The notes below the pieces were generated by a model. The model ran no database searches, was not told where the DNA came from, and was given only the letters and a program-made list of their open reading frames with translations. Positions 76 to 18,532 of a DNA stretch of 21,198 nt are shown here, one piece after another. The first letter of the stretch is position 1. Every line of letters starts with the position of its first letter. Origin of the DNA: Chitinivibrionia bacterium (GTDB lineage Bacteria > Fibrobacterota > Chitinivibrionia > Chitinivibrionales > Chitinivibrionaceae); contig WRFX01000025.1 of assembly GCA_009787445.1 (NCBI GenBank), positions 1-21,198 of the forward strand, in the 5' to 3' direction. The position numbers and the translations under genes are program-made.

Positions 76-104
76 AAAAAATATAAAATTTGGAGAAAAA
101 AACT

Positions 105-671
105 ATGAAAATAGATAAAATAATAGCGATTTTAATATTTGCATGGTTTGCCGTTTGCGCACAAATTCCATTTGGAGGATTTTCCAATTTTAAAGCGTTT
201 CGCGATAATATTCCCGACGTAACAGACACAAGTTTTCGTTTGTCCAAAATTGAAAAATCCGTAGATAAAAACGATTTGGATTTTCGTTTGGAATATAGAG
301 ACGAGCGCGGGAAAATGAAACTTACTCGCAAAGAAATAGCGATATTTGCCGACGGGAAAAATTATTATATCGCCGACGGGACAATAGGTTTCGGCTCGCC
401 GCGTTTTCGCAAATTAACCGATTGTAAAAATTTTTCATATTTTCGCCGCGTGAGTTCTGCGCCGTCGGGAACTGGCGGACATTCCAAAGATAATTTGAAC
501 GAAACTTGGGTAATTTTAGACCATACCAACGGGGCGATTTCGGAATTGACCGACAAAGTGTTAAAACAAATTTTATTGAGAAACGAACCGCTTTTATACA
601 ACGAATATGCCGACAAACACAAAAAAAACGGCAGTCCTATGGATTATATTAAAAGGATTTGTAAAGATTAG
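105..671 (+). CDS. Hypothetical secreted protein (N-terminal signal peptide), 188 aa
   Basis: An ATG at 105 follows a GGAG RBS at 92-95. This is preferred over the TTG at 90 used by the ORF track. The N-terminus MKIDKIIAILIFAWFAVCAQ is a hydrophobic signal-peptide-like segment. No recognisable catalytic motif was found. Confidence 0.55.
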   Translation: MKIDKIIAILIFAWFAVCAQIPFGGFSNFKAFRDNIPDVTDTSFRLSKIEKSVDKNDLDFRLEYRDERGKMKLTRKEIAIFADGKNYYIADGTIGFGSPRFRKLTDCKNFSYFRRVSSAPSGTGGHSKDNLNETWVILDHTNGAISELTDKVLKQILLRNEPLLYNEYADKHKKNGSPMDYIKRICKD

Positions 672-949: not shown

Positions 950-2170
950 ATGTCGTGGACAACGGAACAAATAGAAAAATCGGTTTTTAATTTTGAAAAA
1001 TTTGATAAAAAAACGCAAAAAAAAATTATCGAATTTCTGCAAGAAAATATTTCTTTTGACGATTATTTGAAACAAACCGAAAAAAAGAAAAAAGCGATAG
1101 CGAATACGCAAAACGCAAAAAATATCCTTTTGGGAACGCAGCAAAAATATCCGCGGCATTCGGATTTTTCGCAAATCTCCCTAAATTTACAGGACATAAA
1201 AAATTACGCGATTTTAATAACGGCGGGCGGAGAAGGCGAGCGACTTCGTATTTCGCTCAAAGAAAAAGGATATTCCGACGACGACTTAAAGGACTTCACA
1301 AAAGCGACTTTTCCCATTCCAAATACCGATTACAAATTCGGCGCTTTGGAGGTAAATCTTAAAATGCTCGCCGAATTAAACCCCGAAATTCCCGTTATAG
1401 TAACTACGGGACCAGTCGGCTCGGATACCGAAAAAATAATTCCGCGAATTTTAAGAAAAAACGCGAATTTCGGCGTAAAAAATATAGAAATTATCGCTCA
1501 AAACGAACGACTGCACTTGACAAACGAAAATAAAATCGTGTTTGAAATAGACGAAGAAAACATAAAACCGATTACGAATCCCGACGAAACAGGAGGACCT
1601 ATCGCAAAATTAAAAGACGGCGACATTTTGGAAAATCTTGAAAAAAGCGGAATAAAAAAAATTATGATTTTGCAGGGAACCGCCGTTTATTCCGAAAAAA
1701 TTATCCCGATTATCGCGGCGGCGGGGCAAAACTACGACGGTTTGGGAATCGGAATTTTGCGTAACGAATTTATAGAAAGCGACCCGTACGGCACTTTCGT
1801 TTCGATAAACGATTATAATTTACGAATCATAGAAAAAGAAGTGCGAACGCCGCAAACTTACGCGATAAAGAATGAAAACGGGAAATTTCTTCCTTGCAAT
1901 ACAGGATTTTACGTTTTTGATGTTGAATTGTTAAAAAAAATCGAAATGCCCGATTACGCTACGCCGCCGAAAATTATTTTAGAAGGAATTGAAAAGTCGC
2001 CGAAAATCGGATACGCCGCGACAGATATTATCGCTTTTGCGAAAAAACCCGCGGTGCTTACGATTTCCGACGATGATTTTCGCGTGATAAAAAATGCCGA
2101 AGATATTGATGTTTTGTGGAAATTTTGCGGTTGTGGTGAAAATTCTTTGAAAAGAATTTTGTTTTCGTAA
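950..2170 (+). CDS. Nucleotide-sugar pyrophosphorylase-like protein (eukaryotic-type UDPGP/UAP family), 406 aa
   Basis: An AAGGAG RBS at 937-942 precedes the ATG at 950. The glycine-rich motif ILITAGGEGERL resembles the L(A/N)GG(Q/L)GT(R/S)(L/M)G NTP-binding loop of the UDP-sugar pyrophosphorylases UGP and UAP1. Downstream segments (NPEIPVIVTTGPVGSDTEKII and PDETGGPI...KKIMILQGTAVYS) follow the same domain order as that family. Confidence 0.5.
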   Translation: MSWTTEQIEKSVFNFEKFDKKTQKKIIEFLQENISFDDYLKQTEKKKKAIANTQNAKNILLGTQQKYPRHSDFSQISLNLQDIKNYAILITAGGEGERLRISLKEKGYSDDDLKDFTKATFPIPNTDYKFGALEVNLKMLAELNPEIPVIVTTGPVGSDTEKIIPRILRKNANFGVKNIEIIAQNERLHLTNENKIVFEIDEENIKPITNPDETGGPIAKLKDGDILENLEKSGIKKIMILQGTAVYSEKIIPIIAAAGQNYDGLGIGILRNEFIESDPYGTFVSINDYNLRIIEKEVRTPQTYAIKNENGKFLPCNTGFYVFDVELLKKIEMPDYATPPKIILEGIEKSPKIGYAATDIIAFAKKPAVLTISDDDFRVIKNAEDIDVLWKFCGCGENSLKRILFS

Positions 2171-2457: not shown

Positions 2458-2493
2458 ATGAAAACAAGTAAAAATAGAATGTTAAAGATATGA
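2458..2493 (+). CDS. 11-codon upstream ORF (MKTSKNRMLKI) translationally coupled to the methyltransferase gene
   Basis: A strong SD sequence AAGGGAG lies 7 nt upstream of the ATG at 2458. The stop TGA at 2491-2493 overlaps the mod ATG at 2490 (ATGA). The large gene has no SD of its own. The promoter motif at 2418-2440 lies directly upstream. Confidence 0.3.
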   Translation: MKTSKNRMLKI

Positions 2494-5400
2494 TGAAAAA
2501 CACAAGCGTAAACGAAAAATTGAATCGATTTGTCGAACTTTTGGAGGGCATATTTGAACTCGACAAAGCGGATTTGGACTTCGGCATTTACCGCGTTATG
2601 AATATTCGCAAAGACGAGATAAAAAATTTTCTCTCCGACAACTTGCCGAGAAAAATACGGGAAACTCTTGCCCCGTTCGCCGCTAATACCGAAACGCTTA
2701 CCGCTCGCATTGCCGAGATTGAAAAACAAGCCGCCGACCTTGACATAGAAATAACCGCAAGCCCGAAATTATCCGGCGAATATTCCCGTCTCAAATCGCA
2801 ACTTGCGGCTGGTGTGGATTTATCCGCCCTTGAAACGGACGTATATTCCGCTCTGTACAGTTTTTTCAACCGCTACTACGACGAAGGCGATTTTCTTTCC
2901 AAACGCCGCTACAAAGAGGGCGTATACGCAATACCTTACGAAGGCGAAGAGGTAAAACTTCACTGGGCAAACGCCGACCAGTATTATATAAAAACCGCCG
3001 AAAATTTCCGCGATTATTCATTTATCGTCGATAATAAAAAAGTACATTTTATACTCGTTGAAGCGACAACCGAAAAAAATAACAACAAAGAATCAAACGG
3101 CAACGGGCGTACTTTTATGCTATATACGGAAACCGCCGACAGCCCCGACGTTAAAACGATAGAAGGAATAGACGGCGAACTTATCATACGTTTTGTATAT
3201 AACATTCCCGAAGATAAAAAAAGAAATTACGCCGAAGAAAACCTTGCCGCCATAAAGGAGAATATTCATAAAAACTTTCCCGACTTTCAACGTTTACTCG
3301 CGGCAGTTTCCGAAAAAGATAACCGCTCGTTGCTCCAAAAACACTTGACCGCATACGTAGCAAAAAATACGTTTGATTACTTCATTCATAAAGACCTGAA
3401 CGGCTTTTTGACTCGCGAACTTGATTTTTTCATAAAAAGCGAAGTTATTTGTCTCGACGACATCGACACAACCGATGAAAAACGCGTCGAAAGTTACCTT
3501 GCAAAAGTGCGGGCTATAAAGCGCGTCGGAAAAATTATAATTGAATTTTTGTCGCAGATTGAGGAATTTCAGAAAAAACTGTATCTCAAGAAAAAATTCG
3601 TCGTGGAAACAAACTGGTGCTTAACGCTTGACCGCGTAGATGAAAGTTTTTATTCCGAAATAATTGAAAATACAGCGCAGATTGCCGAGTGGCGGGATAT
3701 GTATGCCATTGACGAAATACAAGAAAATTTATCCGCGGCAGTGTATTGCGACCCGCTGACAATTGAATTTCTGCGGCAAAACTCAAACCTTGTACTTGAC
3801 ACACGGCACTTCTCCGCAGATTTTAAAGACCGTCTTGTAGCAAGTATTGATAATTTGGACGAACAGACGGGGGGCTTGCTGATTCACAGCGAAAATTTTC
3901 AGGCGTTGGGATTGTTGCAGGAGAGGTATCGTGGGCAGATTAAGTGCGTCTATATTGACCCGCCGTATAATACCGATGCAAACAGCATTTTATATAAGAA
4001 CGGGTATAAGGATAGCTCTTGGATTAGCTTAATTCAAGATAGACTCCTATTAACAAATATTCTTATGCGTGAAGATTGCCCGATTATTGTAGCTATTGAT
4101 AGTGCAGAACAAGCAGAATTAAAACTTCTATTATCACAGATATATGTAAATTGTGATATTGATTGTGTTGCTATTGTTCATAATCCTAGAGGGATAATAG
4201 GCACAAACTTTTCTTATACCCACGAATATGCTATATTTGTATCGCCAAAAGGGAAAAAGATTGTAGGCAATAAAAAAATAGAACTGGCTGATATTGATTG
4301 GTCTCCCTTGCGAAATTGGGGCGGCGAATCATTAAGAACCGATGCAAAAAATTGTTTTTACCCTATAATAGTTGAAAATGATACCATAATTGGTTTTGGG
4401 GACATATGCGATGATGATTATCATCCAAATCAAACTGAAAAAATCGGAAATCAATTTTTTGTGTACCCTATCGACCAAAATGGTGTTGAACGCAAGTGGC
4501 GTTATGCGAGGCAAACTATTGACACAATTTTCAATTTAATTAAGGCAAAAAAAACAAAAAACGGTTATGATATAGAATTAGGCAAAGATTTTAGCTTGTA
4601 TAAATCCAGTTGGACGGAATCAAAATACGATGCGAGTGTAAATGGAACTCAGCTGATACAATCCATAATTGGCGACAATCCTTTTACATTTCCTAAATCT
4701 TTGTATACTGTTATAGATTGTATTTCTTCTACGACCACTAGTAATTCTATCATCCTCGACTACTTCGCCGGTAGCGGCACCACCGGTCACGCGGTAATAA
4801 ACCTGAACCGCCAAGACAACGGCAACCGCAAATACATCCTCGTGGAAATGGGCGAATACTTCAGCACGGTAATGCTCCCGCGAATGAAAAAAGTCATCTA
4901 TTCCACCGATTGGAAAAACGGCAAGCCGCAAAACCGCAATACCGGCGTAAGCCACATTATGAAGTATTTTACGCTGGAAAGTTACGAGGACGCGCTTTCC
5001 AATATAACGCTTGACGACGATAAACACGAATTGTCGTTAAAATTCGGCGACGAGTATATGGTGCGGTATATGTTTGATTATGAAGCGAAAAACAGTATGC
5101 TCAACCTTGACTTGTTCGCTATGCCTTTCGATTACAAACTGAAAATCAACGAGAACAACGAAACAAAAGAAAAAACCGCCGATTTGTGCGAGACATTTAA
5201 TTATCTTGTCGGATTATCGGTAATAAAACAATCGACGAAAGAATATTTTTCAGCCGACGACGACCCTGACGGCGAGTACGAAAACGCCGTTAGATTGGAA
5301 CCGAATAAAGACGGTAAATTCGTTTTCAAACGGATTGAAGGGAAACTGCCGGATGGCAGACGCGCGCTCGTTATTTGGCGCGTTATTACAGACGATTTAC

Positions 5401-5591
5401 TTAAAAGCAACGCCGCGCTTGACGCGTATTTTTCAAAAAGCAAAAACAATTTTACATACCGCGAATTTGACTTAATATTTGTCAACGGCGACAATAATCT
5501 CGAAAACCTGCGCCGCGACGACGAGAATTGGAAAGTACGGCGCATAGAACCCGTATTCAAAACAAAGATGTTTGAGGCGGCGCAATTTTGA
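2490..5591 (+). CDS. mod: Type III Mod-like beta-class N6-adenine (or N4-cytosine) DNA methyltransferase with ~450-aa N-terminal extension, 1033 aa
   Basis: Motif IV is present as IKCVYIDPPYNT (D490-Y493) and is preceded by LLIHSENFQALGLL. Motif I (SAM-binding) is present as ILDYFAGSGTT (aa ~757). The order IV-TRD-I defines the beta class. A ~260-aa variable region between the motifs is the target-recognition domain (TRD). The stop overlaps the start of the downstream helicase gene. Confidence 0.85.
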   Translation: MMKNTSVNEKLNRFVELLEGIFELDKADLDFGIYRVMNIRKDEIKNFLSDNLPRKIRETLAPFAANTETLTARIAEIEKQAADLDIEITASPKLSGEYSRLKSQLAAGVDLSALETDVYSALYSFFNRYYDEGDFLSKRRYKEGVYAIPYEGEEVKLHWANADQYYIKTAENFRDYSFIVDNKKVHFILVEATTEKNNNKESNGNGRTFMLYTETADSPDVKTIEGIDGELIIRFVYNIPEDKKRNYAEENLAAIKENIHKNFPDFQRLLAAVSEKDNRSLLQKHLTAYVAKNTFDYFIHKDLNGFLTRELDFFIKSEVICLDDIDTTDEKRVESYLAKVRAIKRVGKIIIEFLSQIEEFQKKLYLKKKFVVETNWCLTLDRVDESFYSEIIENTAQIAEWRDMYAIDEIQENLSAAVYCDPLTIEFLRQNSNLVLDTRHFSADFKDRLVASIDNLDEQTGGLLIHSENFQALGLLQERYRGQIKCVYIDPPYNTDANSILYKNGYKDSSWISLIQDRLLLTNILMREDCPIIVAIDSAEQAELKLLLSQIYVNCDIDCVAIVHNPRGIIGTNFSYTHEYAIFVSPKGKKIVGNKKIELADIDWSPLRNWGGESLRTDAKNCFYPIIVENDTIIGFGDICDDDYHPNQTEKIGNQFFVYPIDQNGVERKWRYARQTIDTIFNLIKAKKTKNGYDIELGKDFSLYKSSWTESKYDASVNGTQLIQSIIGDNPFTFPKSLYTVIDCISSTTTSNSIILDYFAGSGTTGHAVINLNRQDNGNRKYILVEMGEYFSTVMLPRMKKVIYSTDWKNGKPQNRNTGVSHIMKYFTLESYEDALSNITLDDDKHELSLKFGDEYMVRYMFDYEAKNSMLNLDLFAMPFDYKLKINENNETKEKTADLCETFNYLVGLSVIKQSTKEYFSADDDPDGEYENAVRLEPNKDGKFVFKRIEGKLPDGRRALVIWRVITDDLLKSNAALDAYFSKSKNNFTYREFDLIFVNGDNNLENLRRDDENWKVRRIEPVFKTKMFEAAQF

Positions 5592-8500
5592 CAAACAAAA
5601 ACGCGGCTTTTTCTAATTTTCAATGGAGCGAACAACTTGTATTGTTTCGTTATTTTCTTTATCTGTTCGGCAAAAATACGCTTGCCGGACTTGCGGGAAA
5701 TATGAACAATTCGGAATATGAAGGCGTTAATGAAAATCAGAATACGTTTTTTTATGACGAATTAGACGGCGTTTTGTCGCGATACGGCGCGAACGCAAAG
5801 GTAAGCCGCGACGCGCTTCGCGAATACGACGAGAATATTTGCCGCTACGTTAAACAAATTGGCGAGAATCGCGGCGGCATTAAACTGAAATATTTTCAGT
5901 ATATCGCGTGTTTATTTACCGAAATATATCTTGACCGTTATTTTACGGACAAAACCGGATTTGCGGAAGAATTAAACGAATTTTCGAAAAAAGTAAAAAA
6001 AGAAAGTTCCGGCTCGATAGACATTGAACAATTCACGCCCGCAAATATGAATAAACTGGCTTTTATGTGCGCCACGGGCAGCGGCAAAACGCTTATTATG
6101 CATATAAATATTTTGCAATTTTCATATTATCTTAAAAAGGCGAAAATGTTTAATCCGCGTATAAATATTAACAAGATTATCGTTCTTGCGCCGAACGAAG
6201 GAATGTCCCAACAACATTTGGCGGAACTTTATTTGTCGCGCATATCGGCGGAGATGTTCGTAAAAAGCGGTTTCGGCAATAGCGCCGATGTGGTCATCGT
6301 AGATATGAACAAACTAAAAGAGGAAGGTAAGGTAAAAACCGTTTCCGTCGACAGTTTTGAACAGAACAATCTCGTGCTTGTGGACGAGGCGCATCGCGGG
6401 CTTGCCGGCGACGTGTGGTACGATTACCGCTCGCGTCTTTCGGCGGAAGGCGGCTTTGCGTTTGAATATTCCGCCACGCTTAAACAGGCGATGAAAACGC
6501 TGAACGTTAAAAAAGACAAAACGCTTCTCGACGAGTATTTCCGTTCGATTATCATTGACTATTCGTATAAATTCTTTTACGAAGACGGTTACGGCAAAGA
6601 ATACCGAATTTATAATCTGCAAGACAGTATAGACGATGAACAGCGGCAATTATATCTTACGGGATGTTTGTTGTCGTTTTATCAACAACTGAAATTATTT
6701 GCGCAAAAAGTCAAGGAGTATGCGCCGTTTAGTTTGGAAAAGCCGCTGCTTGTTTTTGTCGGCAATCGCGTAACTGCAAAAACGTCCGCCGCCGAGATGA
6801 CCGACGTCGAGGAAGTTTTGGACTTTATCGATAAATTCGCGCATAACAGGGAACGAACGATAGGTCGGATAAACGCCGTTTTAAACGAAGACACGGGACT
6901 TACGGACAGCCGCGGACGCGAACTGTTTTCGCAAAATTTCAACGCCTTATTTTCGCTGTTCGGCGCCGCGCCAAAAGCGGAGGACGTTTATAAAGATATT
7001 TTGCGCGTCGTGTTCAACAGCGATACGGTATCCGACGAATTGCGTTTGCATCTCTTAAACTTGCGTCAAGTGCAAGGCGAAATAGCGTTGCGTATAGGAA
7101 AAGACGGCAAGTATTTCGGCGTGATAAGTATCGGGGATACTTCGGGACTTATTAAAAACTGCGAGGCAAAGGGTATTTTTGCCGAAACGGAGGAATTTGT
7201 CAATGAATCGCTGTTTGGAAATATTAACGAAAAAGTATCTAATATTAACGTTCTTATCGGTTCGCGCAAATTTAGCGAAGGATGGAACTCGTGGCGCGTT
7301 TCGACTATGGGACTTATTAACTTCGCGAAGAGCGAAGGGTCTCAGGCAATACAACTTTTCGGTCGCGGCGTGCGGTTGCGCGGATACGGCGGCTGCCTGA
7401 AACGAAGCGGCAAATTAGACGACCGTTCTATTGTTGCGCCGAAAAACATAGAATTGCTCGAAACTTTGACAATATTCGGTATCAAGGCGAAGTATATGGA
7501 AGATTTCAAAAGACATCTTGAAATAGAAGGTATGCCCGTCAACGAGAAACCTCGCGAATACGCGCTACCGGTTATAAGCCGATACGGTGAAATTAAAGAT
7601 AAAAAACTCCGCGTAATTAAGGTTAAAGACGGCGCGAATTTTAAGAAACAGGCGGCGCGGCTAATGCTAGCGGCGCCGGACGAAGGGTTTTTACGTTATT
7701 TGAACGGAAACAAAGCGATTATTGACTGCCGTTCAAAAGTGCAAACGCTGGAATCCGCGTCGAATGAAAGAATACAATTAGCGCCAAGCGAATATACTAT
7801 TGACGAAAAGTATATTCCGTTTCTTGATTACGAGCGAATTTTTGACGAATTACAAACTTATAAAAACGCTAAACTTTATTATAATATTTCTTTGTCTAAA
7901 GACAAAATAAAGGCAATTTTGCTGACGGACGGATGGTACGGGCTTATTATCCCCCCAAGCCATATAAATATCGACAGCATAGAAAAACTTTCTTTAAATA
8001 CCGATTTTGCAATAATGGTATTAAAAATTTATATCGACAAATTTTACAAATACGAAAAAGACCGATGGGAAACCCCGCGGCTCGAATATCAGGAATTGGA
8101 CGAAAACGACAATAATTTTGTCGACGAATACAAATTCTCCTGTTACGGTAATGACGGCGCCGACTCCGTTGCAGATACTGTGGAGCAGTTTGTCAAGGAC
8201 TTGAACGTGCTACTAAAACAGCATAACGGTATTCCGGCATACGAGAATAGTATATTGAACGGCGCGCTTGTCGCTTTTGACTTTCGGCAACATTTGTACA
8301 CGCCGCTTATATCCAAAGCAGGCGACTTAAAATTGACCGTATCTCCCGTAAGTTTGAACGACGACGAGAAAAAATTTGTCGACAAACTGAAATACTATGT
8401 CGACGATAACGTCGATATGTTCGACGGCAAAACATTATATCTGCTCCGCAATAAGAGCAAAATAGGTATGGGCTTTTTTGAAGCGGGCAATTTTTATCCC

Positions 8501-8827
8501 GACTATGTACTTTGGATAGATACGCCAAAAATACAATATGTTTCCTTCATTGACCCGAAAGGACTGCGCCATATACAATGGGACGACCCAAAAATCGAAT
8601 TTTATGCCGCAATAAAAAATCTTGAAACCAGATTGCAGCCGTCAAGCGCCGATAAACAAATTGTGTTGAACTCGTTTATAATGTCCGCTACACGTTGCGA
8701 AGACCTGCGTCAATGGTGGGGCAAGGATATGGCGCAACGCCGCGCCAAGAATGTATTCTGCCTCGACGAGAGCGATTGCATTGAGGGAATGTTCGAGTTA
8801 ATTAAAGATAATTTTAAGAAAACGTAA
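5588..8827 (+). CDS. res: Type III Res-like SF2 DEAH-box helicase with C-terminal PD-(D/E)xK endonuclease motif, 1079 aa (alternative ATG start at 5702)
   Basis: The Walker A motif is CATGSGKTL (aa ~162-168). Motif II is LVLVDEAHRG (DEAH at 266-269). Motif III is YSATL. Motif VI is QLFGRGVRLRG (~aa 589). The C-terminal sequence FYPDYVLWID...VSFIDPKG gives a PD-(x16)-DxK nuclease signature (aa ~971-991). The TTG at 5588 follows GAGG at 10-nt spacing and overlaps the mod stop (tTGA). The first in-frame ATG is at 5702. Confidence 0.85.
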   Translation: MTNKNAAFSNFQWSEQLVLFRYFLYLFGKNTLAGLAGNMNNSEYEGVNENQNTFFYDELDGVLSRYGANAKVSRDALREYDENICRYVKQIGENRGGIKLKYFQYIACLFTEIYLDRYFTDKTGFAEELNEFSKKVKKESSGSIDIEQFTPANMNKLAFMCATGSGKTLIMHINILQFSYYLKKAKMFNPRININKIIVLAPNEGMSQQHLAELYLSRISAEMFVKSGFGNSADVVIVDMNKLKEEGKVKTVSVDSFEQNNLVLVDEAHRGLAGDVWYDYRSRLSAEGGFAFEYSATLKQAMKTLNVKKDKTLLDEYFRSIIIDYSYKFFYEDGYGKEYRIYNLQDSIDDEQRQLYLTGCLLSFYQQLKLFAQKVKEYAPFSLEKPLLVFVGNRVTAKTSAAEMTDVEEVLDFIDKFAHNRERTIGRINAVLNEDTGLTDSRGRELFSQNFNALFSLFGAAPKAEDVYKDILRVVFNSDTVSDELRLHLLNLRQVQGEIALRIGKDGKYFGVISIGDTSGLIKNCEAKGIFAETEEFVNESLFGNINEKVSNINVLIGSRKFSEGWNSWRVSTMGLINFAKSEGSQAIQLFGRGVRLRGYGGCLKRSGKLDDRSIVAPKNIELLETLTIFGIKAKYMEDFKRHLEIEGMPVNEKPREYALPVISRYGEIKDKKLRVIKVKDGANFKKQAARLMLAAPDEGFLRYLNGNKAIIDCRSKVQTLESASNERIQLAPSEYTIDEKYIPFLDYERIFDELQTYKNAKLYYNISLSKDKIKAILLTDGWYGLIIPPSHINIDSIEKLSLNTDFAIMVLKIYIDKFYKYEKDRWETPRLEYQELDENDNNFVDEYKFSCYGNDGADSVADTVEQFVKDLNVLLKQHNGIPAYENSILNGALVAFDFRQHLYTPLISKAGDLKLTVSPVSLNDDEKKFVDKLKYYVDDNVDMFDGKTLYLLRNKSKIGMGFFEAGNFYPDYVLWIDTPKIQYVSFIDPKGLRHIQWDDPKIEFYAAIKNLETRLQPSSADKQIVLNSFIMSATRCEDLRQWWGKDMAQRRAKNVFCLDESDCIEGMFELIKDNFKKT

Positions 8828-11662: not shown

Positions 11663-13306
11663 TTAAAACAATCCGCTAATTACACCTTTGTCGTCCACGT
11701 CTATCATTTCCGCCGCGGGATTTTTGGGAAGTCCCGGCATTGTCATTATATCGCCCGCTATCGCTACGACGAATCCCGCGCCCGCCGATAGCCGAATTTG
11801 GCGAACGTTTATTTTAAAACCCGTCGGCGCGCAAATCTTTTTTGCGTTGTCCGTAAAAGAATACTGCGTTTTCGCGATACATACGGGAAGCGAGCCGTAG
11901 CCGAGTTTTTCGATATTCTTTATCTGCCTCGTCGCTTCAGCCGAAAACGTTACTCCGTCCGCGCCGTATATGTTGCGCACTATCGTTTCAATTTTTTCGG
12001 TTACGGGCAAATTCGTATCGTATAAATAGCGGAAATTATTTGGACTGTTAACCGCGCCGAGTATTTTTTCCGCAAGTTCAACTCCGCCTTCGCCGCCGCG
12101 TTCATACACGTCCGAGATAGCGGCGGTCGCCCCGAAACTTTCGGCGGCAACGCAAACGTAATTTAAGTCCTCTTGCGTATCGGACGGAAAACGGTTGATA
12201 GCCGCCACGCACGGAAGTCCGTAGCGTTTCGTCATATTTTCGATATGTCTTTTGAGGTTTGCGACGCCTTCTTTAAGCGAGCCGTCGTCTCCTCCGTGAT
12301 GTTTGAGCGCCCTTACAGTCGCGACGACAACCGCGACAGACGGCTGCAATCCGAACCTGCGGCATTTGACGTCGATAAATTTCTCCGCGCCCAAATCCGC
12401 TCCGAACCCCGCTTCCGTTACGACATAGTCGGCAAGATTTACGGCGGCAAGCGTTGCGGCGGCGCTATTGCATCCGTGCGCGATATTTGCGAACGGTCCG
12501 CCGTGGACGAACGCGGGAGTGTGTTCGAGCGTCTGCACGAGGTTGGGTTTAAGCGCGTCTTTAAGCAAAGTCGTCATCGCTCCGTGCGCGCGCAAATCTC
12601 CCGCGGTAACGGGCGCGCCGCCATACGTATAACCGATAATTATTTTCGACAGGTTTTCTTTCAGCGCGGTTATATTTTCGGAAAGGCAGAACACCGCCAT
12701 AACTTCCGACGCGGCGGTGATATCGAATCCGTCTTCGCGCGGCGTACCGTTTGATTTTCCGTTGAGACCGCCGATATAAAAACGCAGTTGTCTGTCGTTC
12801 AAATCGACCGCCCGCCGCCAAGTTACGCGGCGCGGGTCGATATTCAGCGCGTTTCCTTGCCAGATATGGTTGTCTATCATTGCGGCAAGCAAATTGTTCG
12901 CCGAAGTTATCGCGTGCAAGTCGCCGGTAAAATGCAGGTTTATGTCTTCCATCGGCACTATCTGCGCGTAACCGCCTCCCGCCGCGCCGCCTTTTATCCC
13001 GAACACCGGTCCAAGCGACGGCTCGCGCAGGCAAATTATAACATTCTTTTTAAGCCGCGCCAGCGCATCCCCTATGCCTACGGTCGTGGTGGTTTTGCCT
13101 TCGCCCGCGGGCGTGGGAGTTATCGCCGTTACGAGAATTATTTTCGCGCGCCGTTTGGCGTTTGTCAGCGCGGCGGCATTGAGGTTTAATTTCGCCTTGT
13201 ATTTGCCGTAAAGTTCTATGTCGTTTTCGGCAAGCCCGATTTTTTGCGCTATTGAAGCGATATGTTCCAATTTCGCCTCGCGGTCTATTTCAATGTCGGT
13301 TTTCAT
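11663..13306 (-). CDS. fhs: Formate--tetrahydrofolate ligase (FTHFS), 547 aa
   Basis: The protein begins [12 protein letters not shown]. The motif [19 protein letters not shown] matches the conserved FTHFS nucleotide-binding signature. The start at 13306 is preferred over the upstream ATG at 13375 because a GGGGA RBS lies 6 nt upstream and the length is typical. Confidence 0.9.
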
Positions 13307-13337
13307 AATATATCCCCGTTTTAATATGATAAAAGTT

Positions 13338-13361
13338 ATCGGTAAAATAATATTTGGCGAA
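13338..13361 (-). promoter_or_regulatory. Recurrent promoter-like motif, instance on the - strand (TTCGCCAAATATTATTTTACCGat), upstream of fhs
   Basis: The reverse complement of 13338-13361 matches the consensus ~32 nt upstream of the fhs ATG at 13306. Confidence 0.45.
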
Positions 13362-13460
13362 GTAATTTTTGGCAAAAAGTAAAGCCCATATCGTTTTCGG
13401 CAATAAAATATTTATAATTTTCGATAAATTTCGTAACTCGCTGTTTTTCAAAAAATTATT

Positions 13461-13721
13461 TTATGGAACAATAACCCCAAACGCCGATTTATAAATCTCC
13501 GCTTTTTTTTCTAACGCGAGCGGATAAGCCCTCGACGAAGATGGCATTCTGTATAAACGCAATTCTCTATTTTCAAAAATAAACGAAGTATAAGAACCGA
13601 TTGCGGGCGAAAGTATTTGAATGTTTTTTTCGGCGAATTGTTTGATTATCGTTTCCAACGCTTTTTGCCCTGTTGCGACAATATTTCGGAAACGGGAAAG
13701 TTCTTGAATTATTTTTTTCAT
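13461..13721 (-). pseudogene. C-terminal fragment of a Mug/TDG-family (UDG superfamily) DNA glycosylase
   Basis: The 86-aa ORF ends ...LYRMPSSSRAYPLALEKKAEIYKSAF. This matches the conserved C-terminal motif of the Mug/TDG family (E. coli Mug LPNPSGLS; human TDG MPSSSAR). The N-terminal half carrying the catalytic G(I/V)NPG motif is absent. An in-frame stop lies 4 codons upstream of the ATG. Confidence 0.4.
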
Positions 13722-13961
13722 ATCGACTTTTAATTAAGCGGATATTTTTCGTTTTCTTTTGCCTGATTTGCGGCAAAAAAAATAACCGAATTTGACATAA
13801 TTAAGTGCAATAAAGTATATTTAAGTAAAATAAAGCGCAATAAGGAGATAAATATGTTAAAAATCGGCGACATACTTGAAAAAATCAAGTTTTTTCATAA
13901 AAAACTCCTTTTGTTTAGGTTTAAATTTTTGAAATATTTGATAAAACGCGTACTATTTTTA

Positions 13962-13984
13962 ATCGGCAGTTAGTATTTTTATCC
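13962..13984 (+). promoter_or_regulatory. Recurrent promoter-like motif, instance upstream of the OMP-lptFG operon (aTCGGCAgtTAGTATTTTTAtcc)
   Basis: The same motif is followed by aaaaaaTAAGGAttaaaactATG, which mirrors the hisE arrangement. Confidence 0.45.
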
Positions 13985-14005
13985 TAAAAAATAAGGATTA
14001 AAACT

Positions 14006-15952
14006 ATGATATATAGAAAAAAACGCAAAAAAATTTATTATTCGTACAAAAAACTCATAATAATTTTAATTTTTATTTTCTGCGAAATTTCTTTTTGCGA
14101 AGAAAATATTGATTCCTTAAAACTTGCGCAAATTAAGGATTCGTTATACAACATATTTAAAAAACAGGAAGCGTACCATAACGAACGATTTTTTGACAAT
14201 AAAACGCTTTTTTCGCCGACAAAAATTTTACGGCAGCATTTTTTTGGAAACGATTATTTCACTTATAGCGACGTTCTTTCCGGCAATCAAAATTTCGCGT
14301 CTTTGCGATATTCGCCCGATTTTCCGCTGAACCGCGCGCTTTTTCGCGGATATACGATTCCTATCGAATCAGGACTTTTAAGCCGACTTTATTCTCCCGT
14401 TTTGCCGTTTTATTATTACGATTTGTTAGAAATAAAAGAATTTGAAATTCGTCCAAACGGCGACATTTCTCCCGTGATTTTTGACGGAAAAACCGTAACT
14501 CCCGATGTATTTTTCGCTTGGCAGGGCGGACTTTTTAACGGAAATACGCTGAAATTCAGAATGATGCGAAATTTATCGGATAAATTGTCTATGCTTGCGT
14601 TTATTTCGTATTCGGACCTGAAAAGAATGCAATTTTATCACGGCGGCGGAATGGCGCAAACATACAAAACGTATCACAAAGATACGACAAAAATATCGAT
14701 AAACGGCTACAATCCTTATTCTATGACGAACAAAAGCGGAATTTCGTTGGATTACAAAAACAATATTTCGACGTCTTTGCGATATTCGTATTCCGATATA
14801 GGGCAGGATTTGGCGTATCGCACGGATTCCGTCGTCGTTACGCCCGACTCGGTTTTGAATATCGCTTGGAACGAATCGCGAAATTATTTGCATCAAATAG
14901 ACGGCGCGTTTGAAATTCCTTTCGGCGATAAAATTTTATTTAGAAATCTCGGCAAAATCGAAACCGTAAAACAAAACGAAGTTCCGATTTCCCGCACGGC
15001 GCGCGGACGACCCGTTACGGAAAGAAGTTCGCGGGAAAACACGCTTCAATCGGCGGGTTCGCAGTTGTATTTCGCGCCGAAAGATTTTGATTCCATTTCG
15101 CTGCAATTTTCGGTAAATCGCTACATTTCCGATAGCGCAGGAATTACGCACACCGTCGCGCACAATACGAAATTTCTTGCGGAAAACAAGTTTGTTTCGC
15201 CAAATTCGGACAATATTTCCATAACGACAAACGGCGGAATAGAATTTGTAAGAGCAAACGGGAAAAAGATAAAAAATTATCCGTTAGGATTATTGGAAAT
15301 CGACTGGAAAATAAACAATTTTCAAACGCAAATTTGGGGAAAATCGGGTTTTTCTCCGTTAGTTTATTCTAAACCTTACGAAAATTACGACGAAATTGCG
15401 GACGGTTTTAAGGCGTTCGGCGCAAATTTGCGTTATCAGTTTCCCGCCGCGTCCATAAATTTCGGATATTCCGCTATTGACGCGGCAAATATCAGTAAAT
15501 ATTGGCATAATTCAGAGCCGTATTATTGTCCGAAAAACGTTTTTTCCATCGGCGCAAATTTGGGCGAAATTGGCAATTTTTCGTTGTTTTCAAATTGGCT
15601 TTTAAGCGACGAAAAGCCGTACGTAAAATCGTATTCTGGCTTGCGATTTCACTTCAATACAAATTCGCAAGTCCGTCAATTTTATACGGACGTTTTTTAT
15701 AATTATTGGAGCAAAAGAACAAAATATACGGGCGCGTTTTTGTCCGACGCTCAATACTCGTATTTTGGCGATTATCCGCATTGGGGACGTTCGATTCACG
15801 ATGTTTCGTTTAAGTTGACCGCCGAAATTCATACTTTTCGCATATTTTGGAAAATAGATAATTTTCTTAATCGTACAAATTCGTATATTCCCGGATATAT
15901 TATGCCCGGTCTTATTTTTCGCTGGGGATTTTCTTGGAATGTTTTGGGGTGA
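14006..15952 (+). CDS. Putative outer-membrane protein with signal peptide, 648 aa (possibly Lpt/OMP-assembly related)
   Basis: An AAGGA RBS is present. A basic N-terminus is followed by a hydrophobic segment (LIIILIFIFCEISFC). The protein is aromatic- and Gly-rich with beta-strand-like composition and an aromatic-rich C-terminus (IFRWGFSWNVLG). Its stop lies 3 nt before the lptFG start, suggesting co-transcription. Confidence 0.55.
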   Translation: MIYRKKRKKIYYSYKKLIIILIFIFCEISFCEENIDSLKLAQIKDSLYNIFKKQEAYHNERFFDNKTLFSPTKILRQHFFGNDYFTYSDVLSGNQNFASLRYSPDFPLNRALFRGYTIPIESGLLSRLYSPVLPFYYYDLLEIKEFEIRPNGDISPVIFDGKTVTPDVFFAWQGGLFNGNTLKFRMMRNLSDKLSMLAFISYSDLKRMQFYHGGGMAQTYKTYHKDTTKISINGYNPYSMTNKSGISLDYKNNISTSLRYSYSDIGQDLAYRTDSVVVTPDSVLNIAWNESRNYLHQIDGAFEIPFGDKILFRNLGKIETVKQNEVPISRTARGRPVTERSSRENTLQSAGSQLYFAPKDFDSISLQFSVNRYISDSAGITHTVAHNTKFLAENKFVSPNSDNISITTNGGIEFVRANGKKIKNYPLGLLEIDWKINNFQTQIWGKSGFSPLVYSKPYENYDEIADGFKAFGANLRYQFPAASINFGYSAIDAANISKYWHNSEPYYCPKNVFSIGANLGEIGNFSLFSNWLLSDEKPYVKSYSGLRFHFNTNSQVRQFYTDVFYNYWSKRTKYTGAFLSDAQYSYFGDYPHWGRSIHDVSFKLTAEIHTFRIFWKIDNFLNRTNSYIPGYIMPGLIFRWGFSWNVLG

Positions 15953-15955
15953 TAA

Positions 15956-18532
15956 ATGATATTTTACAGATACATAGTAAAAGAATTTATGCGTCCGTTT
16001 TTATACTCGGTCGCGGTGATTTTTATAGTTTTTTTTATGCAACTCGTCGCGCAAATTTTACCGAGAGTATTATATAGAGGCGTTTCGTTTGAGATAGTTG
16101 CGGAATTGTTGGTCGTGAATATGGCAGCTATAATTTCTTTGGCTTTGCCTATGGCTCTTTTAATTTCGTCGCTTATGGTTTTTGGAAAATTATCGTCCGA
16201 CAACGAATATACCGCAATGAAATCGGTGGGAATGAGTTTGTTCGATATGTTGCCGCCGATAGTCAGTTTAAGCGCGATAATCGCCGTACTTTTAATGATT
16301 TTCAACAGCAATATTTTGCCCAACGTAAATCATCACGCGGCGCAACTTATGTCGGATATTATGCGAAAAAAACCCGCCGCGCTTATCGAGCCGGGAGTTC
16401 TAATAAAGGATTTTCAGGGTTATGCGATAAAAGTGGATTCGGTAACGACGGGAACGGGAAATTTATACGGAATTACTATTTTTACGACGCAAAACGACCA
16501 AATTCCTATGGTAAGCGTAGCGGACAGCGGAACGCTTTATCTGACAAAAGACGAAAAATATTTGGAATTGACGCTTTTTTCGGGGCAGACGATTAGCGAA
16601 AACATAAGCGGCGAAAGCGGCGGAAGCGAGGCGAATTTTTTTAAGATAAATTTTGAAAAACAGACGATTTTTGTAGAAAATATAGACAGCGAATTTACCC
16701 GAAGCGATTTGCACAATCGCGGAAATCGCGAAATGGCAAACAAAGAACTTTTAGATGAAATTTCCAATTATAACGAAACGATTTCAAACGAAATAATTTC
16801 GTTTAACGACCGACTTTTAGAAATTACCGAAAGAATAGACGACGCTGCGTCCGATACGTCGGCGATTCTTTATATGGACGATTTTTCTCAATGGTATTCG
16901 GCGGTAATCGCCCGTTTGGGAAGTAGAAACGTTAGCGAAATAAAAAGCGAAATAAATTTCACAAAAGCCAGATTGCAAAGAATCGACGAGTATAAAATCG
17001 AACTCAATAAATACAAAATGGAGATTTATAAAAAATATTCGCTTGCAGTCGGCGCGGTGATTTTCGTTATTTTGGGCGTTCCTTTGGGAATAATCGCGCG
17101 CAACGGAAGCGCCGCAATCAGCGTGAGTTACAGTTTGATATTTTTCATTTTTCACTGGACGTTTTTGATAGGCGGCGAATATTTGGTAAATCAGGGAAAA
17201 CTTATTCCCAGCGTCGCTATGTGGGGAGGAAACGCGATTTTTGCGCTCGTCGCCGTGTGGCTTTTAAGAAAGGTGTCGGGCTACGAAAGCAAGTTTAATA
17301 TATTGTCCGTTTTCGGCGCGTTTGCGGACGTAGTTAAAAAGTTCTTCAAAATAACGAAATTAAATCTTGTTTTCGGTTTTGTAAAAACGCTTTTAGGATT
17401 ATTTGCGGATTTGCCGAGAATTGTCCTGAAACTGTTTTTATCGACTATTCCCGCGTATATTATCGGACGATTTTTCTCGTATTTTTTCGTAACGACAATC
17501 GGACTTTGCGTTATTACGGCGGTTATCGATTTTGTAGGAAACATTCATACGTTTACGGGGGCGAAAACTCCCGAATTAGTTAATTATTACTTATATTTTG
17601 TCGCGTCGTTTCTGTCTATGCTTTTGCCTATCTCTATGCTTTTGTCGGTTATGCTTTCGGTGGGTTCCTTCGCGAAAACAAACGAATTGACGGCTATAAA
17701 ATCGGGCGGAATAAGCATCGCAAAAATGACTTCTCCGCTTATACTTATAGGATTTATTATCGCCGTCGGGAATTTTTTCTTCAACGAGACGTTTTTGGGC
17801 AACGCGAACGAAAAATTGGAATTATACAGAAACACGTTTTCCGCTCGGCAGCAAGGACGACCCATTCCGACGGAAGTCGTAGAATTTCGCCGAAATTTTT
17901 ATTATTTTTCCGATGAAAATACCGCCTATTATTTCAGAAAAATCAACACTTCGCCCGCAAACGGCGAAACGGTCGTGCGTTATTCTTTTGAAAATAACAG
18001 AGTAAAAAGTATTGCGACGTCCGATTTTTTGGAATATTCTACCGAAAAAAAACAGTGGATTATGCCCAACGGACAGGAAAAAATTCTGCAACGGGACGGC
18101 GAGGTTTTAGCGAATATTTTGACGCAAAATATACTTTTAGACCTTAATCAGCCGCCAAGCGATATGGTAAAAACTATACGAAGAATAGAAATGATGAGTT
18201 GGACGGAATTGCAAAAAAGAATGGAAAATGCAAAACAACGCGGAGAAAAAACGCAAAAGTATTTGGCAGATAGTAATTTTAAGTTTTCCTTGCCGCTTAT
18301 GAACGTAATTGTCGTGCTTGTCGGCATCGCGGTAACAGCCCGCTCGACCAAACGCGGAGGCGCCGTGCATTTTGGAGCGGGACTTGGATTTGTGTTTATT
18401 TATTGGGGAATCGCGCAATTTTTGATTGTGCTTGGAAGAAACGAATCGGTAGACCCGATAGTCGCGGCGTGGAGCGCGACGGCGCTTTTTACGATTTTAG
18501 GATTTTTTCTTTATACGAGGGCTTCGAGATGA
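15956..18532 (+). CDS. Fused LptF-LptG-like LPS export permease (two tandem YjgP/YjgQ-family modules), 858 aa
   Basis: The first module begins MIFYRYIVKEFMRPFLYSVAVIF..., the typical LptF/G N-terminus. The second module begins ~aa 470 (LPRIVLKLFLSTIPAYIIGRFFSYFFVTTIGLCVITAVID). Each module has TM segments followed by a periplasmic beta-jellyroll-like stretch. Confidence 0.75.
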   Translation: MIFYRYIVKEFMRPFLYSVAVIFIVFFMQLVAQILPRVLYRGVSFEIVAELLVVNMAAIISLALPMALLISSLMVFGKLSSDNEYTAMKSVGMSLFDMLPPIVSLSAIIAVLLMIFNSNILPNVNHHAAQLMSDIMRKKPAALIEPGVLIKDFQGYAIKVDSVTTGTGNLYGITIFTTQNDQIPMVSVADSGTLYLTKDEKYLELTLFSGQTISENISGESGGSEANFFKINFEKQTIFVENIDSEFTRSDLHNRGNREMANKELLDEISNYNETISNEIISFNDRLLEITERIDDAASDTSAILYMDDFSQWYSAVIARLGSRNVSEIKSEINFTKARLQRIDEYKIELNKYKMEIYKKYSLAVGAVIFVILGVPLGIIARNGSAAISVSYSLIFFIFHWTFLIGGEYLVNQGKLIPSVAMWGGNAIFALVAVWLLRKVSGYESKFNILSVFGAFADVVKKFFKITKLNLVFGFVKTLLGLFADLPRIVLKLFLSTIPAYIIGRFFSYFFVTTIGLCVITAVIDFVGNIHTFTGAKTPELVNYYLYFVASFLSMLLPISMLLSVMLSVGSFAKTNELTAIKSGGISIAKMTSPLILIGFIIAVGNFFFNETFLGNANEKLELYRNTFSARQQGRPIPTEVVEFRRNFYYFSDENTAYYFRKINTSPANGETVVRYSFENNRVKSIATSDFLEYSTEKKQWIMPNGQEKILQRDGEVLANILTQNILLDLNQPPSDMVKTIRRIEMMSWTELQKRMENAKQRGEKTQKYLADSNFKFSLPLMNVIVVLVGIAVTARSTKRGGAVHFGAGLGFVFIYWGIAQFLIVLGRNESVDPIVAAWSATALFTILGFFLYTRASR

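What the first reader, a model, noticed from the sequence alone, without database searches (positions are those of the whole stretch)
3990..4750. Compositional mosaic inside mod: an AT-rich segment with different codon usage coincides with the target-recognition domain
A sampled 60-nt stretch at 4021-4080 has GC of about 33% and heavy use of TTA, ATA, AGA and TGT codons. A comparable stretch at 4801-4860 has GC of about 52% with CGC, CCG and GCG codons, like the rest of mod and res. The AT-rich block lies exactly between motif IV (3957) and motif I (4758), where the TRD of beta-class Mod proteins sits. In Type III mod genes, TRD cassettes are known to be exchanged horizontally between alleles, which changes specificity. 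The sharp composition boundary suggests a recently acquired or swapped specificity domain.
Basis: seen in the sequence. Interest (0 to 1): 0.6.

Follow-up and report, generated by a model that had tools for sequence, protein, structure and literature searches.

The report
AT-rich swappable specificity cassette in mod
The AT-rich stretch inside this DNA-methyltransferase gene is real and is the part that sets target specificity and is swapped between genes. The same AT shift occurs in almost every relative, so it marks this kind of segment and does not show a recent swap here.

Summary
In mod (2490-5591) GC3 falls from 0.47 to 0.25 and rises again to 0.56. Maximum-likelihood change points lie at nt 4029 and 4748 (LLR 27.7; the largest of 200 permutations was 10.4). 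The shift is at synonymous sites (amino-acid-stratified odds ratio 0.245, p = 4e-15).

The block is the segment between motif IV and motif I of a long-form (1033 aa) Type III Mod. It is the only poorly conserved part of the protein (12-46% identity against 55-90% in the flanks). Its edges match the breakpoints seen in 111 family pairs that have at least 90% identical flanks but unrelated central blocks. Its nearest relatives (51-60% identity, up to 70% over fragments) all sit in canonical 560-710 aa Type III Mods, not in its own family. Cassette exchange is therefore well supported.

"Recent" is not supported. No close donor or allele was found. The same GC3 dip occurs in 68 of 73 family members from many phyla (median -0.21) and in 59 of 63 canonical Mods. 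It is absent from Res and from poorly conserved Mod segments, and it persists where cassette and backbone seem to have co-diverged.

Lower GC in Type III recognition domains and en-bloc TRD movement are already published. This is an ordinary new instance, with a possibly under-appreciated general pattern behind it.

The parts
2490..5591 (+). mod: long-form Type III DNA methyltransferase, 1033 aa, beta-class motif order (IV ... TRD ... I)
   Evidence: ORF list. Pfam N6_N4_Mtase, 73.8 bits, aa 484-791. PADLOC MTase_III PDLC03646, E = 7e-202, aa 10-911. Solved Type III Mods Mbo45V 7dsu, 6k0w and EcoP15I Mod 4zcf match.
2490..3929 (+). N-terminal extension of about 480 aa, absent from canonical Type III Mods. 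Part of the conserved, host-like 'flank'.
   Evidence: No Pfam domain. 61-79% identical to family members from many phyla. GC3 0.47.
3957..3968 (+). Motif IV, DPPY (catalytic). The left recombination zone of the family lies around and just after it.
   Evidence: Translation and sequence. Family left breakpoints at aa 461-519.
4029..4748 (+). AT-rich central cassette, codons 514-753. It encodes the conserved catalytic motifs after motif IV plus the target-recognition domain, and is the exchangeable unit.
   Evidence: GC3 0.24 inside against 0.50 outside, LLR 27.7. Stratified odds ratio 0.245. 12-46% identity to the family, whose flanks are 55-90% identical. Nearest relatives are in canonical Mods. 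The family-wide relative GC3 trough covers the same columns.
4764..4784 (+). Motif I, FAGSGTT (AdoMet binding). The right recombination zone lies immediately upstream of it.
   Evidence: Sequence. Family right breakpoints at aa 750-759 in 85 of 111 pairs.
5588..8827 (+). res: Type III restriction subunit, 1079 aa. Its TTG start overlaps the mod stop codon. Used as a linked composition control.
   Evidence: Pfam ResIII/DEAD. PADLOC REase_III PDLC03654, E = 5e-180. Junction sequence. GC3 0.48, and the family relative-GC3 profile is flat.

Best explanation
The AT-rich block (nt 4029-4748) is the exchangeable central cassette of a long-form Type III mod gene. It spans everything between motif IV and motif I: the remaining catalytic motifs plus the target-recognition domain that sets which DNA sequence is methylated and therefore protected from Res.

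Its ancestry differs from that of the rest of the gene. The backbone belongs to a ~1030-aa Mod family, while the cassette lineage is otherwise found in canonical ~600-aa Type III Mods. I infer that it was joined to this backbone by homologous recombination in the DNA that encodes the conserved motif IV and motif I regions. This is the mechanism proposed for Type III TRD movement in Helicobacter and Neisseria/Haemophilus.

The low GC3 is a signature shared by such cassettes throughout Type III mod genes. It shows that the cassette evolves under a different history or regime from its flanks. It does not show that the swap in this locus was recent.

- **Shown here:** the composition break, the coincidence with the family's breakpoints, the incongruent ancestry, and the family-wide dip.
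- **Inferred:** the recombination mechanism, the direction and date of the transfer, and the effect on specificity.
For: - **Composition break.** GC3 is 0.47, 0.25 and 0.56 across the three segments. Change points are at nt 4029 and 4748 (LLR 27.7; permutation maximum 10.4). The amino-acid-stratified odds ratio is 0.245 (p = 3.6e-15).
- **Variable only in the block.** Identity to 119 family members is 12-46% in aa 514-753, against 61-79% in the N-terminal part and 55-90% in the C-terminal part.
- **Exchange within the family.** Flank and TRD identities are uncorrelated (rho = -0.09, 7260 pairs). Some pairs have flanks 94-97% identical with TRDs at 18-33%. Others have flanks at 59-68% with TRDs at 73-79%.
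- **Matching breakpoints.** In 111 pairs with swapped cassettes the breakpoints lie at aa 461-519 and 750-759. The window's GC3 steps are at 514 and 753.
- **Foreign ancestry of the cassette.**
  - The best matches are 54-70% identical fragments of canonical Mods. The long family reaches at most 46%.
  - In an exhaustive HMMER search every match ranked above the first long-family protein (rank 20, 48% identity) is at most 708 aa, and about half are 550-710 aa.
  - In the metagenome scan all 53 complete ORFs carrying a related cassette are under 800 aa.
  - Sliding identity shows canonical Mods are closer over aa 561-720. The long family is closer before aa 480 and after aa 761.
- **The cassette is the outlier, not the flanks.**
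  - Across 61 loci, Mod flank GC3 minus Res GC3 averages -0.001, while TRD minus Res averages -0.20.
  - In the window, the flanks resemble the neighbouring housekeeping genes.
- **Published precedent.** The DRD of modA12 has significantly lower GC than its 5' and 3' regions and is transferred en bloc (PMC3311624). TRDs move between non-orthologous Type III mod genes by recombination at sequences encoding conserved motifs (PMC3467074).
Against: - No conspecific allele or near-identical donor was found. The best full-length cassette match is about 60% identical. The swap into this backbone is therefore inferred from incongruence, not observed.
- The margin between canonical and long-family cassettes is moderate: about 55-60% against 46-48%.
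- A pure 'foreign origin plus incomplete amelioration' model does not explain three things:
  - The shift is always towards AT: 68 of 73 loci, with a regression intercept near 0 rather than regression to a pool mean.
  - It is concentrated at synonymous sites, while GC2 is higher in the cassette.
  - It is as large in 25 loci where cassette and backbone identities are congruent (median -0.23 against -0.205 elsewhere).
Confidence: 0.7

Rival explanations
1. A recent swap. The cassette entered this gene so recently, from an AT-rich donor, that its synonymous sites have not yet drifted to the host's composition.
For: - The block's edges are sharp and visible within a few codons.
- Cassette turnover in the family is fast relative to backbone divergence. 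All 111 pairs with flanks at least 90% identical and TRD under 40% come from the best 120 hits.
- The block's GC3 (0.24) lies far below every gene in the window, which range from 0.38 to 0.57.
Against: - No donor above about 60% full-length identity turned up in four searches:
  - 5.8 billion clustered proteins
  - 1.84 billion representatives
  - 241 million metagenome records
  - viral contigs
- The same dip occurs in 93-94% of two independent sets of Type III mod genes.
- The dip persists in loci with congruent cassette and backbone divergence.
- A signal carried by nearly every member cannot single out this locus as recent.
Confidence: 0.2
2. An in-situ cassette-specific regime. The cassette need not have been imported into this lineage. 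Synonymous sites between motif IV and motif I sit at a lower GC equilibrium than the flanks. One possible cause is that divergent cassettes lack homologous partners and so escape GC-biased gene conversion, or whatever force keeps host GC3 above the AT-biased mutational equilibrium. Another is that cassettes spend most of their history in AT-rich mobile DNA.
For: - The shift is directional and proportional: TRD GC3 = 0.68 x flank GC3 - 0.02 (r = 0.75), with no dip in AT-rich hosts.
- It is a block effect, not a per-site constraint effect. Poorly conserved columns outside the block have relative GC3 of +0.035, while highly conserved columns inside it have -0.124.
- Res is flat, between -0.04 and +0.085, despite segments with conservation of only 0.39-0.43.
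- At four-fold degenerate codon families the difference is -0.24, and 95% of loci have a stratified odds ratio below 1.
- The dip is undiminished in congruent pairs whose flanks have shifted GC3 by 0.15-0.57.
Against: - The mechanism is speculative and was not tested here.
- Similar cassette and flank identity does not prove co-inheritance.
- Only 14 congruent pairs were available.
- It does not explain why this cassette's nearest relatives sit in a different Mod architecture.
- It is compatible with exchange rather than exclusive of it.
Confidence: 0.25
3. Functional AT-richness. The rare, AT-ending codons are selected, for example to slow translation for folding of the recognition domain, or to host an internal regulatory element.
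For: The feature is conserved across phyla, which is what a selected feature would look like.
Against: - There is no excess of promoter-like sites in the block: one weak minus-strand match.
- No repeats, inverted repeats or simple-sequence tracts bound the block or lie within it.
- The trough is a flat plateau over about 250 codons with no local feature.
- In AT-rich hosts the block does not differ from the flanks, so no constant sequence property is preserved.
Confidence: 0.04
4. Chance, or an artefact of amino-acid composition (considered and rejected).
For: GC fluctuates elsewhere in the gene. For example, GC is 0.37 over 3001-3450. The block is also Ile-rich.
Against: - The permutation maximum LLR is 10.4 against an observed 27.7.
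- The test stratified by amino acid gives p = 3.6e-15.
- 16 of the 18 amino acids tabulated in that test show lower GC3 in the block.
Confidence: 0.01

Closest known systems
modA DNA-recognition-domain (DRD) alleles of Neisseria and Haemophilus influenzae (Gawthorne et al. 2012, PMC3311624)
   Same: - A Type III mod gene with conserved 5' and 3' parts and a highly variable central recognition domain.
- The DRD is transferred en bloc.
- The DRD of modA12 has significantly lower GC than its flanks, which the authors read as horizontal acquisition.
   Different: - modA is a canonical-length, phase-variable gene with simple-sequence repeats, studied within species where near-identical alleles exist.
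- Here the Mod is 1033 aa with a ~480-aa N-terminal extension.
- It has no repeat tract.
- No conspecific alleles are available.
TRD movement between non-orthologous Type III mod genes in Helicobacter pylori (Furuta & Kobayashi 2012, PMC3467074)
   Same: - TRDs move between different mod homology groups by recombination at DNA encoding conserved methyltransferase motifs.
- TRD and non-TRD trees are incongruent.
- TRD homologues occur in distant bacteria.
- This matches the window's cassette being closest to cassettes in a different Mod architecture and the breakpoints next to motifs IV and I.
   Different: - In H. pylori the movement is seen among paralogous loci within one species at high DNA identity.
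- Here the evidence comes from protein-level incongruence across phyla at about 50-60% identity. The event itself is old or its donor is unsampled.
Structurally characterised Type III Mods: Mbo45V (7dsu), a H. pylori Mod (6k0w), EcoP15I Mod (4zcf)
   Same: Same beta-class methyltransferase fold at sequence level. aa 450-844 align with Mbo45V (E = 9e-29), including the post-motif-IV region and motif I.
   Different: - Those proteins are 567-644 aa, and none has the N-terminal ~450 aa of this protein.
- The central recognition region aligns only weakly.
Type I hsdS target-recognition-domain shuffling (recalled from general knowledge, not tested here)
   Same: Modular specificity domains flanked by conserved regions are reassorted by recombination to give new specificities.
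   Different: - A separate specificity subunit with two TRDs.
- Often driven by inverted repeats and a site-specific recombinase.
- No such repeats were found here, and no recombinase gene was noted.

Membership tests
Type III restriction-modification system (Mod subunit, beta-class N6-adenine methyltransferase) | Motif order: catalytic motif IV (DPPY), then the recognition domain, then AdoMet motif I (FxGxG) | tested here: met
   DPPY at aa 490-493 and FAGSGTT at aa 759-765.
Type III restriction-modification system (Mod subunit, beta-class N6-adenine methyltransferase) | Significant match to curated methyltransferase and Type III Mod profiles | tested here: met
   Pfam N6_N4_Mtase scores 73.8 bits against a cut-off of 26.7. 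PADLOC MTase_III PDLC03646 has E = 7e-202. PDB Type III Mods match at E = 9e-29 to 4e-21.
Type III restriction-modification system (Mod subunit, beta-class N6-adenine methyltransferase) | An adjacent, co-oriented res gene encoding a helicase-type ATPase restriction subunit | tested here: met
   res at 5588-8827 overlaps the mod stop codon. It matches Pfam ResIII/DEAD and PADLOC REase_III at E = 5e-180. The nuclease motif of Res was not examined.
Type III restriction-modification system (Mod subunit, beta-class N6-adenine methyltransferase) | Biochemistry: m6A hemimethylation of a short asymmetric site, and ATP-dependent cleavage that needs Res-Mod complexes | not testable with these tools
   Needs methylome sequencing and enzyme assays.
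Exchangeable Type III TRD/DRD cassette (domain movement) | Variation confined to the central region, between conserved flanks | tested here: met
   12-46% identity in the centre against 55-90% in the flanks. Conservation profile.
Exchangeable Type III TRD/DRD cassette (domain movement) | Incongruence between TRD relationships and non-TRD relationships | tested here: met
   rho = -0.09 over 7260 pairs, with extreme pairs in both directions. The cassette is closest to canonical Mods while the backbone is closest to the long family.
Exchangeable Type III TRD/DRD cassette (domain movement) | Breakpoints at DNA encoding conserved methyltransferase motifs | tested here: met
   Breakpoints at aa 461-519 (around and after motif IV) and aa 750-759 (just before motif I) in 111 pairs, measured at protein level. 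The pairs are not independent.
Exchangeable Type III TRD/DRD cassette (domain movement) | Alleles in closely related genomes that share near-identical flanks at DNA level but carry different cassettes at this locus | not testable with these tools
   The only other copy found is the identical contig. The nearest backbone is 71% identical.
Exchangeable Type III TRD/DRD cassette (domain movement) | Cassette GC lower than the flanks (reported for modA12) | tested here: met
   Also family-wide.
Phase-variable mod (phasevarion) | A simple-sequence repeat tract in or before the mod reading frame | tested here: not met
   No such tract. Only weak 2-4-copy arrays with scores of 30-39, none in the 5' part of mod.
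Invertible or shufflon-type specificity switching | Inverted repeats flanking the variable segment, silent cassettes, and a linked site-specific recombinase | tested here: not met
   Only short, imperfect repeats of chance grade, and none bracket 4029-4748. The neighbouring ORFs had no hit in Pfam, NCBIfam or PADLOC.

The most novel reading that the evidence does not exclude
The AT shift at synonymous sites may be a universal, persistent property of the motif IV to motif I cassette of Type III mod genes, not a transient scar of import.

- It occurs in 93-94% of two independent sets of genes.
- It scales with host GC3 (slope about 0.65-0.68).
- It is absent from Res and from poorly conserved Mod segments.
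- It is present even in highly conserved columns of the cassette.
- It is undiminished where cassette and backbone seem to have co-diverged.

This would mean that specificity cassettes evolve under their own regime. They might reside mostly in AT-rich mobile DNA. Alternatively, lacking homologous partners, they might escape the GC-raising force (biased gene conversion or selection) that acts on ordinary genes. If so, low GC in a recognition domain should no longer be read as evidence of recent horizontal transfer.
Probability: 0.35. Interest if true: 0.55.

Novelty: new member of a known kind. Interest (0 to 1): 0.3.

Why it matters
For this locus the cassette defines which sequence the system methylates and restricts, so it sets the host's methylome and its barrier to phage and foreign DNA. 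Mosaic Type III mod genes with AT-rich recognition domains are already documented, so the locus adds an example in a little-studied long-form Mod family rather than a new principle.

The wider point is methodological. A compositional break inside a mod gene is routinely read as recent horizontal acquisition. In the 136 relatives examined here the break is the rule, it is directional, and it persists. It therefore cannot date an event. It may instead offer a natural test of what maintains GC content in bacterial genes.

Tried and rejected
- **Chance or amino-acid composition.** Rejected by permutation and by the stratified codon test.
- **Weak protein constraint.** The idea was that poorly conserved segments drift AT-rich. 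It was rejected for three reasons:
  - Poorly conserved columns outside the block are not AT-shifted.
  - Highly conserved columns inside the block are AT-shifted.
  - The Res control is flat.
- **Flanks unusually GC-rich rather than the block AT-rich.** Rejected. Flank GC3 equals Res GC3 (difference -0.001, n = 61) and resembles the neighbouring genes.
- **Switching machinery.** I looked for repeats, inverted repeats, silent cassettes and simple-sequence tracts and found nothing convincing.
- **Internal promoter or terminator in the block.** No enrichment.
- **Search for a recent donor or allele.**
  - The exact-protein lookup returned only the same contig.
  - The cassette-only searches returned at most about 60% full-length identity, or 67-70% over fragments.
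  - Viral contigs gave one hit at 47%.
- **The '~400-aa stand-alone methyltransferases'.** These are truncated or frameshifted fragments of canonical Type III mod genes, not a separate family. One search also failed to list the identical protein P0001, so its ranking was not trusted until searches agreed.
- **Upstream ORFs 90-671 and 950-2170 as parts of the system.** They are not found next to mod in any related locus and have no defence-family hit.
Full report
**1. The observation**

The window encodes a mod-res pair. mod is 2490-5591 (+), 1033 aa. res is 5588-8827 (+), 1079 aa, and its TTG start overlaps the mod stop codon. Mod carries Pfam N6_N4_Mtase over aa 484-791.

| Segment | GC | GC3 |
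|---|---|---|
| 2490-3989 | 0.42 | 0.466 |
| 3990-4750 | 0.33 | 0.253 |
| 4751-5591 | 0.45 | 0.564 |

An unsupervised maximum-likelihood segmentation of the GC3 series places the block at codons 514-753, which is nt 4029-4748. The LLR is 27.7, against a mean of 5.1 and a maximum of 10.4 in 200 permutations.

The difference lies in synonymous codon choice, not amino-acid content. The Mantel-Haenszel odds ratio for GC-ending codons, stratified by amino acid, is 0.245 against the mod flanks (p = 3.6e-15). Against the other genes of the window it is 0.30.

- The left edge is about 40 nt downstream of 3990.
- The block is not the TRD alone. It also encodes the conserved catalytic motifs that follow motif IV (aa ~508-585, which align well with Mbo45V). 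The window's GC3 is lowest there, at 0.13-0.20.

**2. What the gene is**

PADLOC assigns Mod to MTase_III model PDLC03646 (E = 7e-202, aa 10-911) and Res to REase_III PDLC03654 (E = 5e-180). Solved Type III Mods match aa 450-844: Mbo45V 7dsu, 6k0w and EcoP15I Mod 4zcf. This is a Type III system of a long-form subfamily whose Mod has an extra ~450-480 N-terminal residues with no Pfam domain.

The subfamily is large. More than 8000 proteins were scored, and they come from many phyla. The surrounding genes look like ordinary chromosomal genes with GC3 of 0.41-0.57: hisG, a Band_7/flotillin-like protein, formate-tetrahydrofolate ligase, an LptF-LptG fusion and a GGDEF protein.

**3. Is the block the variable, exchangeable part?**

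Yes. Five lines of evidence support this.
- Against 119 family members, identity to the window's Mod is 61-79% in aa 1-483 and 55-90% after aa 754. In aa 514-753 it is only 12-46%.
- Across 7260 pairs, flank identity and TRD identity are uncorrelated (rho = -0.09). Some pairs have flanks 94-97% identical with TRDs at 18-33%. Others have flanks at 59-68% with TRDs at 73-79%.
- In the 111 pairs with flanks at least 90% identical and TRDs under 40%, two-breakpoint segmentation puts the left breakpoint at aa 461-519, with modes in the 490s and 510s. The right breakpoint is at aa 750-759 in 85 of the 111 pairs. The window's GC3 steps at codons 514 and 753 fall on these zones. These pairs come from a few backbone clusters and are not independent.
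- No repeats bracket the block, and there is no simple-sequence tract.
- No recombinase gene was noted next to the system.

**4. Where the cassette comes from**

- A search with the block alone returned best hits of 54-67% identity. They looked like ~400-aa methyltransferases. Inspection showed them to be fragments of canonical Type III mod genes, cut by contig ends or frameshifts. Some carry the PF12564 N-terminal domain.
- With one method (BLASTP of aa 514-753 against all fetched proteins), these fragments reach 54-70% identity. The best long-family cassette reaches 46%.
- An exhaustive HMMER scan of 1.84 billion representatives agrees. Every match ranked above the first long-family protein (rank 20, 48% identity) is at most 708 aa, and about half are 550-710 aa, with 46-55% identity.
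- A metagenome scan seeded only on cassette peptides gave 80 loci at 49-60% identity. All 53 complete ORFs among them are under 800 aa.
- Sliding identity shows the crossover. Long-family relatives are closer before aa 480 and after aa 761, while canonical Mods are closer over aa 561-720.

The cassette lineage is therefore shared with a different Mod architecture. This is the pattern Furuta and Kobayashi described as TRD movement between non-orthologous Type III mod genes (PMC3467074). No near-identical donor exists in any collection searched. The only other copy of the gene is the same contig from another assembly.

**5. Does the composition break mean a recent swap?**

- **The dip is the rule.**
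  - I extracted the homologous gene from 73 species-level genomes spanning hosts with locus GC of 0.26-0.71. In 68 of them the cassette has lower GC3 than the flanks, with a median difference of -0.21. The window's value is -0.26.
  - The stratified odds ratio is below 1 in 95% of the loci (median 0.36).
  - At four-fold degenerate codon families the difference is -0.24.
  - GC2 is slightly higher in the cassette.
- **It is a block effect.**
  - Column by column, relative GC3 forms a flat trough of -0.10 to -0.16 over query aa ~497-767, with sharp shoulders. Elsewhere it is mostly +0.01 to +0.11, sliding through zero (-0.02 to 0.00) in the windows that adjoin the trough.
  - Per-site constraint does not explain the trough. 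Columns with conservation below 0.3 outside the block have +0.035. Columns with conservation above 0.9 inside it have -0.124.
- **The controls are clean.**
  - The linked res gene shows no comparable feature in 66 loci. Its profile stays between -0.04 and +0.085, including segments with conservation of only 0.39-0.43.
  - Flank GC3 equals Res GC3 (difference -0.001). The cassette lies 0.20 below Res.
- **Canonical Mods show it too.** Those carrying related cassettes show the dip in 59 of 63 cases, though it is weaker (median -0.08).
- **The shift is directional and proportional.** TRD GC3 = 0.68 x flank GC3 - 0.02 (r = 0.75). There is no dip in AT-rich hosts and no regression towards a common pool mean.
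- **It persists.** In 25 loci belonging to pairs whose cassette and flank identities are congruent (55-85% flank identity, cassette and flank within 0.07 of each other), the dip is as large as elsewhere (-0.23 against -0.205). This holds even though the flanks of some of these pairs differ in GC3 by 0.15-0.57.

A signal carried by nearly every member, including apparently long-resident cassettes, cannot date the event in this locus.

**6. Mechanism**

The best-supported reading (confidence about 0.7) is that nt 4029-4748 is the exchangeable motif IV to motif I cassette. It has a different ancestry from the backbone and was joined to it by homologous recombination in the motif-encoding DNA on either side. 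It determines the methylation and restriction specificity.

- **Shown here:** the break, its coincidence with the family's breakpoints, the incongruent ancestry, and the family-wide signature.
- **Inferred:** the recombination mechanism (by analogy with PMC3467074 and PMC3311624), the timing, and the effect on specificity.

Why cassettes are AT-shifted everywhere remains open. Fast turnover is real. However, import plus incomplete amelioration does not by itself explain the directionality, the restriction to synonymous sites or the persistence. A cassette-specific equilibrium is a live alternative. It could arise from residence in AT-rich mobile DNA, or from escape from GC-biased conversion or selection because divergent cassettes lack homologous partners. 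It is not exclusive of exchange. Functional AT-richness has no support.

**7. Comparison with what is known, and verdict**

Lower GC in the recognition domain of a Type III mod gene, read as horizontal acquisition, and en-bloc DRD replacement are published for modA (PMC3311624). Movement between non-orthologous Type III mods is published for H. pylori (PMC3467074).

The locus meets every sequence-level criterion tested for a Type III system and for an exchangeable cassette. It fails the criteria for phase variation and for invertible switching.

It is a new member of a known kind, and interest is low to moderate. The part worth a specialist's attention is the general, directional and persistent AT shift of Type III cassettes seen in the 136 relatives examined. 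I did not find this stated as a general rule in the two literature searches aimed at it.

Noticed in passing
window 2490-3929 (Mod aa 1-480): Mod has a ~450-480-aa N-terminal extension that canonical Type III Mods and the solved structures lack. It has no Pfam domain, yet it is 61-79% identical across family members from very different phyla (Holophagales, Defluviitaleaceae, Synergistaceae, Accumulibacter and others). That is unusually high conservation for part of an R-M gene. Its role is unknown.
   Followed up: partly
L082 4306-6260; L083 about 3900-6800: Many database 'proteins' that best match the cassette are pieces of canonical Type III mod genes, and in L083 of res as well, split by frameshifts. 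In L082 a 173-aa PF12564 N-terminal ORF is followed by a 419-aa ORF that begins just after DPPY. These could be assembly errors (the L082 record name suggests 3x coverage), pseudogenes or phase-variable genes.
   Followed up: partly
window 11663-13375 (-) and 13376-14005: The formate-tetrahydrofolate ligase gene is the GC-richest gene in the window (GC 0.52, GC3 0.57). It abuts a very AT-rich stretch around 13200-14250 (GC 0.22-0.35) that includes the intergenic region upstream of the gene. This is a second strong composition contrast, unrelated to mod.
   Followed up: no
window 15956-18532 (+): A single 858-aa ORF matches LptF in its N-terminal part (aa 2-277) and LptG in its C-terminal part (aa 499-855). 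This looks like a fusion of the two LPS-export permeases.
   Followed up: no
window 90-671 and 950-2170 (+): Two ORFs upstream of mod have no hit in Pfam, NCBIfam or PADLOC and are not found next to mod in any related locus. The 406-aa product contains a GGxGxRL-like nucleotidyltransferase motif (ITAGGEGERL). Both have lower GC3 (0.38-0.39) than the mod flanks.
   Followed up: partly
L001, L002, L073; L084-L087, L108, L110, L113, L160: The nearest backbone relatives and several of the nearest cassette relatives come from a recurring set of metagenome projects. For example, the Ga0099364 prefix appears both in a Defluviitaleaceae MAG title and in a cassette hit. Backbone and cassette relatives may therefore share a habitat, possibly termite gut. 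That last point is my inference from the sample names and was not verified.
   Followed up: no
L005, L006, L007, L014: A few family members run against the trend, with cassette GC3 equal to or higher than the flanks. L005 (Selenomonadales) shows +0.13. L006 and L007 (Lachnospiraceae) show +0.01 to +0.03. These would be useful test cases for any general explanation of the AT shift.
   Followed up: no
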